Source: Escherichia phage SM_W22
DNA length: 44,245 nucleotides
Direction: 5' to 3' (one strand)
Sequence record: PP920555.1
Position numbers and translations under genes: made by a program. The stretch's first letter is position 1. The number at the start of each line of letters is the position of its first letter. Positions 24,773-27,960 of the stretch are shown one piece after another. The notes under the pieces are model-generated. The model searched no databases and was not told the origin of the DNA. It saw only the letters and a program-made list of their open reading frames with translations.

Positions 24773-25327
24773 TTATTTCAGTGCGCCAGTCACCAGTGTT
24801 TTTTCCATGTTGCGGAAGTCTTCCGGCGTCATGAGGATTTTGGACCCATCCTCGCCAGTGAGCACGACCATAGGCTGGACGTCCTGGGCTACGACGCCGA
24901 AATCGGCGGCTTTAACAGTCTTCCCGAACGAGGCTACCACACCCTCGGCAACGCGCATTGCACTGTTATACGCATTAATCTCGCCGTCAAGACGCACGGA
25001 CAGATCTTTGAGGCTTTCAAACTGTTCTGCCGTTGTATCGATCTGAATCTCGTCGTGTACGGTCATGTACGACTCGCCCAGCAAAGCCGCATACGCTACC
25101 AGGTCGACGATATTGTCTTCCTGGTGCTTACGGTGCTGGCGCACCAGCTTCAGGCAGATCAGGAAGGTCCATGCTTCTTGCTCGGTCAGGTCGCGACCGG
25201 TAAGCGCGTTAAACACGGCGGCAATTTGTTTCGCGCTGCGTTCCTCTTTCGCGTTGTCATAGCCGTTTGCTTTCCCGCGCTGTTCCATAGTGGTGGCGGC
25301 GTTTTTGCAGTATTCGTATGCTTTCAT
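24773..25327 (-). CDS. Hypothetical protein
   Basis: 184 aa ORF with protein-like composition; no motif confidently recognised. Confidence 0.5.
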   Translation of the reverse strand: MKAYEYCKNAATTMEQRGKANGYDNAKEERSAKQIAAVFNALTGRDLTEQEAWTFLICLKLVRQHRKHQEDNIVDLVAYAALLGESYMTVHDEIQIDTTAEQFESLKDLSVRLDGEINAYNSAMRVAEGVVASFGKTVKAADFGVVAQDVQPMVVLTGEDGSKILMTPEDFRNMEKTLVTGALK

Positions 25328-25379: not shown

Positions 25380-25403
25380 TTGCAACCAACCTATTGGTTG
25401 CAA
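25380..25403. promoter_or_regulatory. Palindromic pair of TTGCAACCAA motifs
   Basis: TTGCAACCAA-ccta-TTGGTTGCAA perfect inverted repeat; third partial copy TTGCAACG about 10 bp downstream. Confidence 0.45.
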
Positions 25404-25723
25404 GTGAATTTTGCAACGTTTATTGCGTAAATTTTCGGAACCAGATCGCCACACGCCCGACGAATTGCCGCGATGTTCTTCTCGCAATCTTCAATGATGA
25501 CCAGTTCCGACACGTCTGCGTAGCAGACCATTTTGAACACGGCGCACGCCTTAAACTCTGGCGGCGGGGTGTCGTCCAGCATGTGGCGCATGAACAATCG
25601 ACCTACGGGGAAGACCTTCAGTTGTTCGGCGGTCGTGTCCCAACATTCGCGCTGCCGGTTTGTCAGATACGCGATCTCGAAGCCTTGCTCTTTGTACATG
25701 CGCAGCAGCGGCAGCATATCCAT
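25391..25723 (-). CDS. HAD-like hydrolase C-terminal portion (gene appears frameshifted relative to upstream ORF 25551..25937)
   Basis: LPLLRMYKEQGFEIAYLTNRQ and MLDDTPP resemble HAD motifs II-IV; an N-terminal VDRDPAVVD motif-I-like segment lies in another frame upstream. Confidence 0.4.
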   Translation of the reverse strand: MDMLPLLRMYKEQGFEIAYLTNRQRECWDTTAEQLKVFPVGRLFMRHMLDDTPPPEFKACAVFKMVCYADVSELVIIEDCEKNIAAIRRACGDLVPKIYAINVAKFTCNQ

Positions 25724-25917
25724 GTTCAGATCTTCGCGGACGTGCGCTTCGCGCAGTAAAGGAGTTGCACACGAAATGGCAACGCTGAGTCATGACAAGC
25801 CAACCGGTGAGGTCAAGGCCCAGGATGTATTCGGGGCGAGACGCGCGCACCACACGATTGCGTCGCGGGTCAATACCGTAGTCTTTTTGCATTTGGTCTA
25901 CTACCGCGGGGTCGCGG

Positions 25918-26403
25918 TCAACGATTAAGATATTCAAGGAGTTCTCCTTCGCTCATTATTTCAATTTGTGCGCTGCCGATGGGCGGCGCTTCGTCAAATA
26001 TTATCAATTGCTGGCATTTGTTATTGCTCGGCCCGACTTCACCGGTGACGGCGTGAATGAATCTAATCCGCCAGTCCAGAAGAATTATCAGGTTTGCAGT
26101 CTTCCGGGCCATCCTCGCCCACTTCGTCGACGTGTCCTGATTCAGCAGCATGACAGTCCGGCGTCCGTGCGCCGCGCACTCTACCCACGGCAGCGGATCG
26201 GAATACGGCGGATTGCACCACTTCCACCCTTTCAACTCGGACCAGTCCACATCAAGCGCGCTATGTTCTGCTGTGAAGTAACGCGGTAGCAGGTGGTTGG
26301 CATCGCTTGCCGCCATATCGTAACGGAATCGGTATTTCCGACGAAGCGGTTTGAATAAAGCTGGCGGCGTGCGCCAGCTATCTTTTTGCTCACTCTCCGT
26401 CAT
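25918..26403 (-). CDS. DNA N6-adenine methyltransferase (phage Dam family)
   Basis: WRTPPALF near N-terminus and NPPYS catalytic motif; track ORF trimmed to Met at 26403 giving a 14-nt overlap with upstream gene. Confidence 0.75.
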   Translation of the reverse strand: MTESEQKDSWRTPPALFKPLRRKYRFRYDMAASDANHLLPRYFTAEHSALDVDWSELKGWKWCNPPYSDPLPWVECAAHGRRTVMLLNQDTSTKWARMARKTANLIILLDWRIRFIHAVTGEVGPSNNKCQQLIIFDEAPPIGSAQIEIMSEGELLEYLNR

Positions 26404-26854
26404 TCTGCGGGTCCAGTGCGTAAAGGGCAATCTTTTCGCCTTTGCCTCGGGTAAGTACGCGCTGGACCCGCGCCATCTCATCCTTGCCAAGAGGTCGGCA
26501 ATCGGAATAGTAGCTGCCGTTCGCACGCCACGCTACCAGCACCAGGTCTTTCCTGTCGATCGAAGACCGGCGACCCTTCGGGCGCACGTATTCCTCGGCC
26601 CGTTTGCAATGCTCGCGCAGGCCGTCGGCGGTGATGCGGTTTAGCGCAACGCTGGTTGTGTATCCGGTGCGCTGCATAATCCCCATCAATTCGAAAAGTA
26701 GTTCGAAGCGCTCCTCTATCTCCTGGCGCACTTTCTTCTCGCCTTCGTATAGCGCCTGGTTGGTGTCCGCCAGCGCGCTGACGCGTTCGACCTGTTCGCG
26801 GGCTTCGAGGCATTGCGCGGCCCAGTAATTTTTCTCTTCTTGTAAAATTTTCAT
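26390..26854 (-). CDS. Hypothetical protein (coiled-coil N-terminus)
   Basis: 154 aa ORF; no motif recognised. Confidence 0.5.
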   Translation of the reverse strand: MKILQEEKNYWAAQCLEAREQVERVSALADTNQALYEGEKKVRQEIEERFELLFELMGIMQRTGYTTSVALNRITADGLREHCKRAEEYVRPKGRRSSIDRKDLVLVAWRANGSYYSDCRPLGKDEMARVQRVLTRGKGEKIALYALDPQNDGE

Positions 26855-26908
26855 CGTGTTGTCTCCAGGTATTAAAAAAGGCGTCCAAACCGGACACCCT
26901 TAAGATAA

Positions 26909-26935
26909 TGCAACCAATATGATTATGCAACCAAT
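26909..26935. promoter_or_regulatory. Two direct copies of TGCAACCAAT
   Basis: Copies at 26909-26918 and 26926-26935 in intergenic gap upstream of minus gene starting at 26854. Confidence 0.4.
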
Positions 26936-27253
26936 TTACGCATAAAAGTTCGGGTCGCGTGCGACGTCTACCAGGTAAAGGTTGCTTATGCGGTTGCCGT
27001 AGTGCCCTGGAGTGCGCTGGCGGCACACAACGGCGAAGCCTGGAGGGATTGTATTGCCCGTCTCAATAATCCACGCCACGCGTGCGCCAGACAGCGTCTT
27101 GCCGTTGTATTCGATACGTGTTCCGCCATCGGCGGTATTGAGGTTGCCAATTTTGCAGCCGGTGGACTTCAGACGAATGACGCCGGTTTTGCTGTCGTAG
27201 GAGAATAACTGGTTAGTCATTGCAACCGAAAAATCGATGGCTTCGAATGTCAT
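26936..27253 (-). CDS. HNH_3-like domain protein (possibly catalytically degenerate)
   Basis: GNRISNLYLV matches the NNRIENLRLV-type C-terminal HNH signature; expected upstream D-H replaced by R-Q. Confidence 0.4.
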   Translation of the reverse strand: MTFEAIDFSVAMTNQLFSYDSKTGVIRLKSTGCKIGNLNTADGGTRIEYNGKTLSGARVAWIIETGNTIPPGFAVVCRQRTPGHYGNRISNLYLVDVARDPNFYA

Positions 27254-27960
27254 TTTAAATTTTCCTCGTTAACCGCTATCGCGAAGCCGCGCGGAGTGAG
27301 CGACCGGATTAATTTTGTGCGGGCTGATTTGCCTCCGAGGCGACTATACTGCTTCGAGTACCCTTTTTCAACGAATACAGGCTTTTTCTCTGGCATACGA
27401 AAGCCGTTGCCGGTCCATAAGCAGGTCCGCTTCGGATATGAATCGCGCGCGTTGATGTATTCCGGGAACAACGGGTGCACGTCATCCTCCGGCAGATAGC
27501 CGCCATACTCCCACGGATCAAACGAGTGGTCTGGCTTACGCCACTGTGTGGAAAGCACACTGCGCGGATTCTCAATCATATACGGCACTTCGAAGAAGTC
27601 ACCCAGGTAAGCTGCGATCTTCGCGGTGCGCACCGCCTTAAGCTGGAAGGCCGGGTCTTTAGCACGCTTGCGCGGGAAAGCTGGCGCGCCGCTCACTGCC
27701 AGATCCGTACACGGGGGGAAAGCATAAATGATATCCGGCGTACCGAAATCGCCATTCATCGCTCGGTCCACGAAGTCCAGATCGATAAACTCATTGCGAT
27801 ACCGGATCCCGCGACCATAAATCCGGTAGTCAAGGTATGACCCGTGATCAGCTTCGGAGTAGTTAAAACAGTAGCACTTATGCCCCATCTCGGCAGCACG
27901 CTCAATCATCAAGCCGCTGCCGTCAAACAGTGACCAGATTGTCATTTTCGCAATAGTCAT
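27250..27960 (-). CDS. DNA (cytosine-5)-methyltransferase-like protein, short form
   Basis: Motif I-like LFDGSG, motif IV-like FPPCT (PC catalytic Cys), motif VI-like ENP, motif IX-like RSLTPRGF; only 236 aa so target recognition region minimal. Confidence 0.5.
   Translation of the reverse strand: MTIAKMTIWSLFDGSGLMIERAAEMGHKCYCFNYSEADHGSYLDYRIYGRGIRYRNEFIDLDFVDRAMNGDFGTPDIIYAFPPCTDLAVSGAPAFPRKRAKDPAFQLKAVRTAKIAAYLGDFFEVPYMIENPRSVLSTQWRKPDHSFDPWEYGGYLPEDDVHPLFPEYINARDSYPKRTCLWTGNGFRMPEKKPVFVEKGYSKQYSRLGGKSARTKLIRSLTPRGFAIAVNEENLK

What the first reader, a model, noticed from the sequence alone, without database searches (positions are those of the whole stretch)
25918..27960. Two orphan DNA methyltransferases (Dam-like and short C5-cytosine-like) in replication module
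A Dam-family adenine methyltransferase (NPPYS motif) and a 236-aa protein with C5-methyltransferase-like motifs I (LFDGSG), IV (FPPCT, not the usual PCQ), VI (ENP) and IX but almost no target recognition domain lie 850 bp apart. No restriction endonuclease partner is evident. Likely anti-restriction self-modification; the unusual PCT variant and minimal size could mean altered specificity or a different base modification.
Basis: partly seen in the sequence, partly recalled or inferred. Interest (0 to 1): 0.55.

Follow-up and report, generated by a model that had tools for sequence, protein, structure and literature searches.

The report
Two known orphan phage DNA methyltransferases
This coliphage (genus Dhillonvirus) carries a small adenine methyltransferase gene and a very small cytosine-C5 methyltransferase gene with no partner nuclease; both are real, but both are already annotated in about 150 related phages, and a relative of the cytosine enzyme has been shown to make 5-methylcytosine, so the finding is ordinary.

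Summary
Observation confirmed; nothing here is new. The window is a complete Dhillonvirus (HK578-like) coliphage genome, about 92% identical over this region to Oekolampad/Bas18, where the same two genes are annotated "Dam-like N6-adenine" and "Dcm-like C5 cytosine" methyltransferase.

- **Gene A (25918-26403, minus strand, 161 aa):** it matches Pfam PF05869 "Dam" at E 1e-35, has an NPPY motif, and is 37% identical to the only methyltransferase annotated in the first 50 kb of VT2-Sakai, taken here (not verified) to be the GATC-specific M.EcoVT2Dam.
- **Published evidence:** a relative whose mutated residues (C82/E128/K175/K176) fall in the same register as the 54%-identical Bas07 protein is phage K42 "Dcm". 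It puts 5mC on retron Ec86 msDNA and triggers that defence.
- **No partner nuclease:** the adjacent HNH-like ORF is confined to Dhillonvirus.

The "different base modification" idea finds no support: 0 of 118 related loci carry CmoA or CmoY. It has not been tested chemically. Target sequences and an anti-restriction benefit remain inferred.

The parts
25918..26403 (-). Dam-like (PF05869-type) N6-adenine DNA methyltransferase, 161 aa. The mechanical ORF runs on to a GTG at 26526.
   Evidence: Pfam PF05869 E 9.8e-36. PHROG 111 E 2.5e-55. PADLOC 'orphan methyltransferase' E 3.9e-11. 37% identity, E 8e-25, to VT2-Sakai orf32. The start is supported by Oekolampad bas18_0032, also 486 nt, and by the sequence.
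26203..26214 (-). NPPY catalytic motif (motif IV) of the adenine methyltransferase
   Evidence: Translation. It aligns with NPPY of VT2-Sakai orf32.
27250..27960 (-). Minimal C5-cytosine DNA methyltransferase ('Dcm-like'), 236 aa. An alternative start at Met6 would give 231 aa.
27913..27927 (-). Motif I, F12-D-G-S-G16 (SAM-binding loop)
   Evidence: F12, G14, S15 and G16 are invariant in A1. The motif aligns with FAGLGG of M.HhaI and FAGGGG of SpCmoX.
27706..27720 (-). Motif IV, F81-P-P-C84-T85 (catalytic cysteine)
   Evidence: C84 is invariant and T85 at least 90% conserved across 33-55% identical relatives. It aligns with FPCQ of M.HhaI and SPPCS of SpCmoX. It corresponds to C82 mutated in the K42 Dcm study.
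27565..27573 (-). Motif VI, E130-N-P132 (the ENV equivalent)
   Evidence: E130 and P132 are invariant. It aligns with ENV of SpCmoX in a relaxed hhalign run. It corresponds to E128 of K42 Dcm.
27427..27444 (-). D173-S-Y175-P-K177-R178, leading into the last core strand; probable motif VIII equivalent (substrate contacts)
   Evidence: Y175 is invariant; D173 and K177 are at least 90% conserved. K177/R178 correspond to K175/K176 mutated in K42 Dcm.
27271..27306 (-). C-terminal motif R219-S-L-T-P-R224-G-F-A-I-A-V (motif IX/X equivalent; register unresolved)
   Evidence: Translation. R219, S220, P223 and G225 are at least 90% conserved. Relaxed hhalign runs place it either on motif IX or on motif X of SpCmoX.
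26936..27253 (-). HNH-like 105-aa ORF between the two methyltransferase genes, sharing an ATGA overlap with the Dcm-like stop. Context only, not a partner nuclease.
   Evidence: PHROG 99 E 2.6e-16. Pfam HNH_3 only E 0.07. 161 phage records (157 Dhillonvirus-type plus 4 Edwardsiella phages). No PADLOC hit.
26390..26854 (-). 154-aa ORF of unknown function between the two methyltransferase genes (context)
   Evidence: PHROG 10530 labelled 'DNA ligase', but there is no Pfam, NCBIfam or PADLOC support. A GenBank annotator wrote 'Possible DNA ligase but no evidence'.

Best explanation
These are two stand-alone (orphan) DNA methyltransferases, co-transcribed with the replication genes (DNA polymerase I, SNF2 helicase) of a lytic Dhillonvirus.

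The 161-aa enzyme is a PF05869-type N6-adenine methyltransferase. It most likely makes G(m6A)TC.

The 236-aa enzyme is a stripped-down C5-cytosine methyltransferase. Cys84 attacks C6 of a flipped-out cytosine, Glu130 (in ENP) protonates N3, and a methyl group is taken from SAM. About 50 C-terminal residues replace the usual target-recognition domain and motifs IX and X.

Together they would fully modify newly replicated phage DNA regardless of host Dam/Dcm capacity. This would block restriction enzymes that are sensitive to these marks. The cost is that the phage becomes visible to methylation-sensing defences such as retron Eco1 (Ec86).

Shown here: family membership, fold, conserved catalytic residues and the lack of a partner nuclease. 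Taken from the literature: 5mC formation by a homologue. Inferred: the target sequences (GATC; CCWGG-like) and the anti-restriction benefit.
For: **Identity of the phage and existing annotation**
- The region is 92.9% identical to Oekolampad/Bas18. 152 of 160 matching phage records cover at least 80% of it, and many annotate both enzymes.

**Dam-like enzyme**
- PF05869 E 1e-35. The best PADLOC model is 'orphan methyltransferase'.
- 37% identity to VT2-Sakai orf32. M.EcoVT2Dam and M.EcoT1Dam are reported to be GATC-specific.

**Dcm-like enzyme**
- PHROG 757 E 3e-84. The family has 1,936 representatives at 50% clustering.
- 19 of 32 close relatives match PF00145, the best at 28.5 bits against a cut-off of 22.
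- C84, E130 and P132 are invariant across relatives down to 33% identity.
- Phage K42 Dcm (711 bp; C82/E128/K175/K176) raises 5mC on Ec86 msDNA by LC-MS. A mutant lacking these residues does not. Escape mutants of the phage disrupt the gene.
- The Bas07 homologue is 54% identical to the window protein at an offset of exactly -2. This puts those residues on C84/E130/K177/R178.

**Operon structure and context**
- ATGA overlaps link helicase to Dcm-like and Dcm-like to HNH-like. A 14-nt overlap precedes the Dam-like start.
- 41 of 80 related viral loci also carry a Dam-like gene within 10 kb.

**Genome composition**
- GATC (154 sites) and CCWGG (153 sites) remain abundant. Several 6-bp palindromes are absent: AAGCTT 0 against 16.6 expected, CAGCTG 0 against 13.4, GGGCCC 0 against 12.9. 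This is consistent with site avoidance for some restriction targets and modification for others.
Against: - The window's own Dcm-like protein has no Pfam or NCBIfam hit. Sequence similarity to solved C5 methyltransferases is not significant (E about 1).
- Profile alignments are reliable only over motifs I to IV.
- The CCWGG specificity is assumed by the Ec86 authors from E. coli Dcm, plus site mutagenesis of the msDNA. It was not mapped.
- The enzyme has no domain resembling the E. coli Dcm recognition domain.
- No methylome of any Dhillonvirus turned up in the literature searches.
- BASEL data show no clear restriction resistance in these phages for the systems tested.
- The host already has Dam and Dcm, so any benefit depends on the host and on timing.
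Confidence: 0.85

Rival explanations
1. The mini C5 enzyme transfers something other than a methyl group. For example, it might use host-made carboxy-SAM to form 5-carboxymethylcytosine, as the cyanophage enzyme CmoX does.
For: - CmoX is defined by SPPC plus Arg350 in place of M.HhaI Asn304.
- The window protein has FPPC followed by a small hydroxyl residue (T; CmoX has S), and conserved arginines (R219, R224) in the motif IX/X region.
- E. coli's own CmoA can supply Cx-SAM to a DNA carboxymethyltransferase.
- The K42 study assayed only 5mC.
Against: - The K42 homologue raises 5mC in vivo in a cmoA+ host.
- DNMT3A/B rank alongside or above CmoX in the fold searches and use SAM.
- 0 of 80 close and 0 of 38 distant related viral loci carry CmoA or CmoY homologues within 10 kb. 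By contrast the CmoX study found 4,257 CmoA sequences on the contigs of its 5,615 candidates.
- tblastn finds no similarity between SpCmoX and the mini-family genes themselves. The two SpCmoX hits among the distant loci (L107, L125) lie at other coordinates than the mini-family match, so they are separate genes.
- Which arginine, if any, matches R350 could not be resolved.
Confidence: 0.04
2. The Dcm-like gene and the overlapping HNH-like ORF form a small restriction-modification pair, so the methyltransferase is not an orphan.
For: The two ORFs are translationally coupled through an ATGA overlap. The 105-aa protein matches the PHROG 99 'HNH endonuclease' family at E 2.6e-16.
Against: - The HNH-like ORF is found in 161 phage records (157 Dhillonvirus-type plus 4 Edwardsiella phages), and in 7 of 80 related loci. 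The methyltransferase family is in 1,511 records.
- Bas07 has the methyltransferase without it.
- Pfam HNH_3 gives only E 0.07 over 18 residues.
- There is no PADLOC restriction-enzyme hit.
- It is annotated as a homing endonuclease in relatives.
Confidence: 0.02
3. The enzymes are active methyltransferases, but their main role is not anti-restriction. They might keep fast-replicating phage DNA fully Dam-methylated to avoid MutH nicking, regulate packaging or gene expression, or counter other defences.
For: - The genes sit inside the replication operon.
- BASEL found no simple link between methyltransferase genes and restriction resistance, and Dhillonvirus phages are comparatively restriction-sensitive.
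- The K-12 host already supplies Dam and Dcm marks (established knowledge).
- Dam-like and Dcm-like genes co-occur in half of the related loci. That points to a conserved joint role, of unknown kind.
Against: - The restriction systems tested in BASEL do not target GATC or CCWGG, so they do not probe the relevant protection.
- Strong avoidance of several 6-bp palindromes shows that the genome is under restriction pressure.
- There is no direct evidence for any regulatory role.
Confidence: 0.2
4. The 236-aa protein is an inactive relic, or it acts on RNA as DNMT2 does, rather than on DNA.
For: - It is very small, with no recognisable target-recognition domain.
- It has no Pfam hit.
Against: - The catalytic Cys, Glu and ENP are invariant across a family of about 1,900 clusters. 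That implies purifying selection for catalysis.
- The homologue methylates msDNA in vivo and this depends on those residues.
- DNA methyltransferases (DNMT3, M.HhaI) score higher than DNMT2.
Confidence: 0.03

Closest known systems
Phage K42 / KarlJaspers (Bas06-like, Drexlerviridae) 'Dcm', the trigger of retron Ec86/Eco1 (bioRxiv 10.1101/2023.08.16.553469)
   Same: - Same gene length (711 bp).
- Same family: the Bas07 homologue is 54% identical to the window protein.
- The catalytic and substrate residues fall in the same register. C82/E128/K175/K176 map to C84/E130/K177/R178.
- Also an orphan gene in a small siphovirus of E. coli.
   Different: - A different phage group (Dhillonvirus rather than Drexlerviridae) and different neighbouring genes.
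- R178 replaces the second lysine.
- Whether this phage triggers Eco1 has not been tested. The K42 sequence itself was not available, so the link runs through Bas07.
DNMT3A/DNMT3B catalytic domain (eukaryotic de novo C5 methyltransferases)
   Same: - Motif IV is followed by D-L-S/A (PCNDLS against PPCTDLA), as the HMMER alignment with DNMT3B shows.
   Different: - Only 12-16% identity, and the sequence E-value is not significant (1.4).
- DNMT3 enzymes are larger: the matched PDB chains are 270-440 residues against 236 here.
Canonical bacterial C5 methyltransferases (Pfam PF00145: M.HhaI, M.HaeIII, E. coli Dcm)
   Same: - Motifs I, IV (Pro-Cys) and VI (E-N-x) are present.
- Relatives pass the PF00145 threshold over motifs I to IV.
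   Different: - About 90-240 residues shorter.
- PC-T instead of PC-Q, and ENP instead of ENV.
- Motif VIII reads PK(K/R)T rather than QxRxR.
- There is no target-recognition domain, and motifs IX/X are compressed into about 20 residues.
- The window protein itself fails PF00145.
- The name 'Dcm-like' describes the chemistry, not a shared recognition domain.
SpCmoX, the DNA cytosine C5-carboxymethyltransferase of Synechococcus phage S-B43 (PDB 8YF3; PMC12783734)
   Same: - A Pro-Pro-Cys motif followed by a small hydroxyl residue.
- A conserved arginine near the C-terminal cofactor-closing region.
   Different: - 372 aa, with a full recognition domain and a clear PF00145 hit.
- It is encoded next to CmoA and an amide ligase. 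The mini family never is, in 118 loci.
- FPPC rather than SPPC.
- The homologue of the window protein makes 5mC.
PF05869 phage 'Dam' methyltransferases (M.EcoVT2Dam of Stx phages; M.EcoT1Dam)
   Same: - Pfam hit at E 1e-35.
- 37% identity to VT2-Sakai orf32, including the W-x-T-P and NPPYS motifs.
- Similar small size (161 against 175 aa) and orphan status.
   Different: - Below the NCBIfam TIGR01712 equivalog cut-off (85.8 against 97 bits).
- Unrelated in sequence family to E. coli Dam.
- GATC specificity is extrapolated from relatives 35-37% identical. One such relative, M.Btr190III, shows off-target activity.

Membership tests
C5-cytosine DNA methyltransferase superfamily (Pfam PF00145) | Score above the Pfam gathering threshold | tested here: inconclusive
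   The window protein has no hit even at E<=10. 19 of 32 relatives at 57-84% identity do hit, and three checked individually score above the cut-off of 22 bits (28.5, 25.4, 24.7), covering motifs I to IV only.
C5-cytosine DNA methyltransferase superfamily (Pfam PF00145) | Motif I FxGxG (SAM-binding loop) | tested here: met
   F12-D-G14-S-G16. It is invariant among close relatives and aligns with motif I of M.HhaI, M.HaeIII, DNMT3B and SpCmoX.
C5-cytosine DNA methyltransferase superfamily (Pfam PF00145) | Motif IV Pro-Cys with the catalytic cysteine | tested here: met
   P83-C84. C84 is invariant across relatives of 33-55% identity and aligns with C81 of M.HhaI and C98 of SpCmoX. The next residue is T, not Q.
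C5-cytosine DNA methyltransferase superfamily (Pfam PF00145) | Motif VI ENV glutamate | tested here: met
   E130-N131-P132. E130 and P132 are invariant. A relaxed hhalign run pairs it with ENV of SpCmoX. Variant: ENP.
C5-cytosine DNA methyltransferase superfamily (Pfam PF00145) | Motif VIII QxRxR | tested here: inconclusive
   There is no QxRxR. The conserved Y175-P-K177-(K/R)178-T179 before the last core strand is the probable equivalent (K175/K176 in the K42 study). No reliable alignment was obtained.
C5-cytosine DNA methyltransferase superfamily (Pfam PF00145) | Variable target-recognition domain between motifs VIII and IX | tested here: not met
   Only about 34 residues (185-218) lie between the last core strand and the C-terminal motif. 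In addition, a conserved insert of about 20 residues sits in the beta6-beta7 region.
C5-cytosine DNA methyltransferase superfamily (Pfam PF00145) | Motifs IX and X (the C-terminal helix that closes the cofactor site) | tested here: inconclusive
   A single conserved segment, R219-S-x-T-P-R-G-F-A-x-A-V, is present. Alternative hhalign registers put it on motif IX or on motif X of SpCmoX.
C5-cytosine DNA methyltransferase superfamily (Pfam PF00145) | Class I methyltransferase fold closest to solved C5 methyltransferases | tested here: met
   [not shown]
C5-cytosine DNA methyltransferase superfamily (Pfam PF00145) | Forms 5-methylcytosine in DNA from SAM | not testable with these tools
   Literature only: K42 Dcm raises 5mC on msDNA by LC-MS, and the quadruple mutant does not.
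PF05869 phage 'Dam' N6-adenine methyltransferases | Score above the Pfam gathering threshold | tested here: met
   123.4 bits against a cut-off of 28.1, E 9.8e-36, covering profile positions 4-150 of 169.
PF05869 phage 'Dam' N6-adenine methyltransferases | (D/N)PP(Y/F) catalytic motif | tested here: met
   N64-P-P-Y67 at 26203-26214. It aligns with NPPY of VT2-Sakai orf32.
PF05869 phage 'Dam' N6-adenine methyltransferases | NCBIfam TIGR01712 equivalog cut-off | tested here: not met
   85.8 bits against a cut-off of 97.05. It belongs to the Pfam family but not to the narrower equivalog.
PF05869 phage 'Dam' N6-adenine methyltransferases | GATC specificity | not testable with these tools
   Reported for M.EcoVT2Dam and M.EcoT1Dam. 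The window protein is 37% identical to VT2-Sakai orf32. This is an extrapolation only.
CmoX DNA cytosine C5-carboxymethyltransferases | SPPC motif | tested here: not met
   The window protein has FPPC. Distant relatives have mostly PPCT or APCT. The definition comes from PMC12783734.
CmoX DNA cytosine C5-carboxymethyltransferases | Arginine at the position of M.HhaI Asn304 (SpCmoX R350) | tested here: inconclusive
   R219 (at least 90% conserved) and R224 are candidates. The alignment register is unresolved.
CmoX DNA cytosine C5-carboxymethyltransferases | Genomic association with CmoA (Cx-SAM synthase) and/or an amide ligase (CmoY) | tested here: not met
   tblastn with SpCmoA and SpCmoY gives 0 of 80 and 0 of 38 loci (1.37 + 0.55 Mb). 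The positive control on S-B43 was found.
Type II restriction-modification system | A cognate restriction endonuclease gene next to the methyltransferase and co-distributed with it | tested here: not met
   The only adjacent nuclease-like ORF (HNH-like) is confined to 161 phage records (Dhillonvirus plus 4 Edwardsiella phages) and matches no PADLOC nuclease model. The other nuclease annotated in the relative is a PD-(D/E)XK protein located in the replication/recombination gene block.

The most novel reading that the evidence does not exclude
The mini C5 enzyme (FPPC-T, conserved arginines in the cofactor-closing C-terminus, no recognition domain) might not be a plain CCWGG methylase. It could accept host carboxy-SAM and so install some 5-carboxymethylcytosine. 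More modestly, it could modify a very short or structure-dependent target, such as hairpin or imperfect sites like the one in Ec86 msDNA. Either would give enterobacterial phages a cytosine mark that has gone unnoticed, because only 5mC has been assayed.
Probability: 0.05. Interest if true: 0.6.

Novelty: already known. Interest (0 to 1): 0.15.

Why it matters
This matters mainly as a correct annotation. The phage should carry m6A and 5mC marks. Those marks affect restriction digests, cloning, nanopore basecalling, sensitivity to type IV restriction, and probably triggering of retron Eco1.

The one open scientific point concerns the minimal C5 family as a whole. It is present in at least 1,500 sequenced phages, yet its target sequence has never been mapped, and how an enzyme with almost no recognition domain picks its sites is unknown.

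Tried and rejected
- **Direct domain searches on the 236-aa protein.** Pfam, NCBIfam and PADLOC gave nothing. The assignment had to come through PHROG, relatives and the fold.
- **Sequence searches against the PDB.** Neither the single sequence nor two profiles gave significant hits; the best relevant ones were DNMT3B at E 1.4 and M.HaeIII at E 0.11. The Dam-like protein had none.
Only motifs I to IV aligned reliably. Relaxed and global modes gave two conflicting registers for the C-terminus. Whether an arginine matches CmoX R350 therefore stays open.
- **HNH-like ORF as a cognate nuclease.** Rejected on its distribution.
- **Cx-SAM pathway association.** Rejected in 118 loci.
- **Failed locus searches.** The search for related loci failed with the broad alignment A3 and found nothing for P0141.
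- **Literature searches for a methylome of Dhillonvirus or Drexlerviridae.** Nothing was found. The search for "Dcm-like" returned cardiology papers.
- **Site counts.** GATC and CCWGG counts neither prove nor disprove methylation.
Full report
**What the window is.** The 4 kb around the finding is 92.9% identical to Escherichia phage Oekolampad (Bas18, genus Dhillonvirus). 152 of 160 matching phage records cover at least 80% of it. The Oekolampad annotation is colinear with the window from the small terminase onwards, so the window is a complete, or nearly complete, HK578-like siphovirus genome. In Oekolampad the two genes are already named "Dam-like N6-adenine methyltransferase" and "Dcm-like C5 cytosine methyltransferase". 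Many other records carry equivalent names.

**The observation.** Both ORFs are on the minus strand. The Dam-like ORF runs mechanically from a GTG at 26526. The Pfam match begins at residue 43 of that ORF. The ATG at 26403 overlaps the stop of the upstream 154-aa ORF by 14 nt and gives the same 486-nt length as the Oekolampad gene. The gene is therefore 25918-26403 (161 aa). NPPY is at 26203-26214. The second ORF, 27250-27960 (236 aa), starts in an ATGA overlap with the SNF2 helicase stop and ends in an ATGA overlap with the next ORF.

**The adenine enzyme.**
- Pfam PF05869 "Dam" gives E 9.8e-36. PHROG 111 gives E 2.5e-55. The best PADLOC model is "orphan methyltransferase".
- It falls short of the narrower NCBIfam equivalog TIGR01712 (85.8 against 97 bits).
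- Relatives occur in 1,771 phage records.
- It is 37% identical (E 8e-25) to orf32 of VT2-Sakai. orf32 is the only methyltransferase annotated in the first 50 kb of that phage.
- M.EcoVT2Dam is reported to target GATC. So is M.EcoT1Dam, and a 35%-identical relative of the latter shows off-target activity.
- GATC specificity for the window enzyme is therefore a reasonable extrapolation, not a result. I did not independently verify that orf32 is M.EcoVT2Dam.

**The cytosine enzyme: family.**
- The window protein itself has no Pfam, NCBIfam or PADLOC hit and no significant sequence match in the PDB.
- It nevertheless belongs to a very large, tightly conserved family. PHROG 757 gives E 2.9e-84. 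There are 2,896 homologues in the 90%-clustered database, 1,936 representatives at 50% clustering and 1,511 phage records. These include Drexlerviridae and other Escherichia, Klebsiella, Salmonella and Vibrio phages, among them several large genomes of about 136-165 kb.
- Of 32 close relatives, 19 match PF00145. Three checked individually exceed the gathering threshold over motifs I to IV.
- Across relatives down to 33% identity, the invariant residues are C84, G91, E130, P132, P149, Y175, W182 and P190. T85, N131, R141, K177, T179, R219, S220, P223 and G225 are at least 90% conserved.

**The cytosine enzyme: fold and motif mapping.**
- An AlphaFold model built on the alignment is confident (pLDDT 90.8, pTM 0.89).
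- Foldseek's best PDB matches are all eukaryotic DNMT-type C5 methyltransferases, mostly DNMT3A/B (E about 2e-7).
- The secondary structure shows the last core strand at residues 179-184. Only about 50 residues follow it.

**Experimental anchor from the literature.** A preprint on retron Ec86 (Eco1) isolated escape mutants of phage K42, a relative of KarlJaspers/Bas06. All of them disrupted a 711-bp "dcm" gene.
- Expressing that gene was toxic only in the presence of the retron.
- LC-MS showed increased 5mC on msDNA with the wild-type protein, but not with the C82A/E128A/K175A/K176A protein.
- Later papers cite this as established.
- The Bas07 homologue, also 236 aa, is 54% identical to the window protein at a constant offset of -2. 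The mutated residues therefore map onto C84, E130, K177 and R178.
- This is indirect, because I could not obtain the K42 sequence itself. It still makes SAM-dependent C5 methylation of DNA the best-supported activity.
- The CCWGG target in that study was assumed from E. coli Dcm and supported only by mutating the msDNA site. It has not been mapped.

**Orphan status.**
- The 105-aa ORF between the two genes matches the PHROG "HNH endonuclease" family, but Pfam HNH_3 gives only E 0.07.
- It occurs in 161 phage records, of which 157 are at least 80% identical (Dhillonvirus-type) and four are Edwardsiella phages. It is found in 7 of 80 loci related through the methyltransferase.
- Bas07 has the methyltransferase without it, and it hits no PADLOC nuclease model. 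It is not a cognate restriction enzyme.
- The other nuclease annotated in the relative is a PD-(D/E)XK protein in the replication/recombination gene block.
- In 41 of 80 related loci a Dam-like gene lies within 10 kb of the mini C5 gene, so the pairing is common.

**The "different modification" idea.** A natural DNA C5-carboxymethyltransferase, CmoX, was described in 2025.
- It is defined by SPPC plus Arg350 in place of M.HhaI Asn304.
- E. coli CmoA can supply its cofactor.
- The window protein has FPPC-T and conserved arginines in its C-terminal motif, and SpCmoX is a top structural hit. I therefore tested the idea.
- Against it: SpCmoA and SpCmoY homologues are absent from all 80 close and 38 distant related viral loci, with the positive control on S-B43 found.
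- SpCmoX shows no BLAST similarity to the mini-family genes themselves. Its two hits among the distant loci lie at other positions, so they are separate genes.
- DNMT3A/B rank alongside or above CmoX in the fold searches and use SAM. The homologue yields 5mC.
- Relaxed hhalign runs put the C-terminal motif on either motif IX or motif X, so the arginine equivalence is unresolved.
- I rate this reading at about 5%.

**Function.** Anti-restriction self-modification is plausible but untested.
- GATC (154 sites) and CCWGG (153 sites) are abundant. Several 6-bp palindromes are absent or nearly so: AAGCTT 0 against 16.6 expected, CAGCTG 0 against 13.4, GGGCCC 0 against 12.9, GCATGC 0 against 10. This fits a genome under restriction pressure that avoids some sites and could modify others. 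Host-like composition may explain part of the pattern.
- BASEL saw no simple relation between methyltransferase genes and restriction resistance in Drexlerviridae. It describes Dhillonvirus phages as less resistant than Queuovirinae. The systems tested there do not target GATC or CCWGG.
- A known cost is that the homologue triggers retron Eco1.

**Verdict.** Both genes are already annotated across the genus, and the unusual one belongs to a family with published biochemical and genetic evidence. Novelty: already known. The remaining open points are the true target motif of the minimal C5 family and how it recognises DNA without a recognition domain.

Noticed in passing
window about 25690-25700 (minus-strand genes 25391-25937): Relative to Oekolampad the window lacks 145 bp. 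The missing stretch holds the stop of the 74-aa bas18_0031 homologue and the first ~40 codons of the HAD-type 'putative phosphatase', including its DLDG motif. As a result the small ORF runs on out of frame (128 aa) and the phosphatase ORF is cut to 110 aa. This is probably a natural inactivating deletion.
   Followed up: partly
window 26936-27253 (-): The HNH-like 105-aa ORF is 95-100% conserved across Dhillonvirus and translationally coupled to the Dcm-like gene. Only a weak, partial HNH_3 match remains (E 0.07 over 18 residues). It behaves like a genus core gene rather than a mobile homing endonuclease, and it may be catalytically degenerate.
   Followed up: partly
whole window: Several 6-bp palindromes are strongly avoided: AAGCTT 0/16.6, CAGCTG 0/13.4, GGGCCC 0/12.9, GCATGC 0/10.0, GCCGGC 1/16.3, GGCGCC 3/22.1, CGGCCG 1/11.9. 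So are CTAG (11/50) and GGCC (166/238). GCGC, TCGA and CCWGG occur at about the expected frequency. The counts were not compared with host composition.
   Followed up: no
window 26390-26854 (-): The 154-aa ORF falls in PHROG 10530, which is labelled 'DNA ligase'. It has no Pfam, NCBIfam or PADLOC support, and one GenBank annotator noted 'Possible DNA ligase but no evidence'. The label looks unreliable.
   Followed up: no
window 26855-26935, against Oekolampad 26573-26815: The window lacks the 243-nt hypothetical gene (bas18_0034) that Oekolampad carries between the 154-aa ORF and the HNH-like ORF.
   Followed up: no
GenBank records MG065648.1 and OQ221563.1 (hits H11, H21): Records named 'Campylobacter phage A144' and 'Acinetobacter phage NJ01' are about 91-92% identical to this E. 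coli Dhillonvirus region over the full 4 kb. The host labels probably reflect contamination or mis-assignment.
   Followed up: no
window 24773-25327 (-): This DUF6378 protein (Pfam E 1e-9) matches PHROGs labelled 'phosphofructokinase', a dubious label. It lies in the same operon, downstream of the methyltransferases.
   Followed up: no
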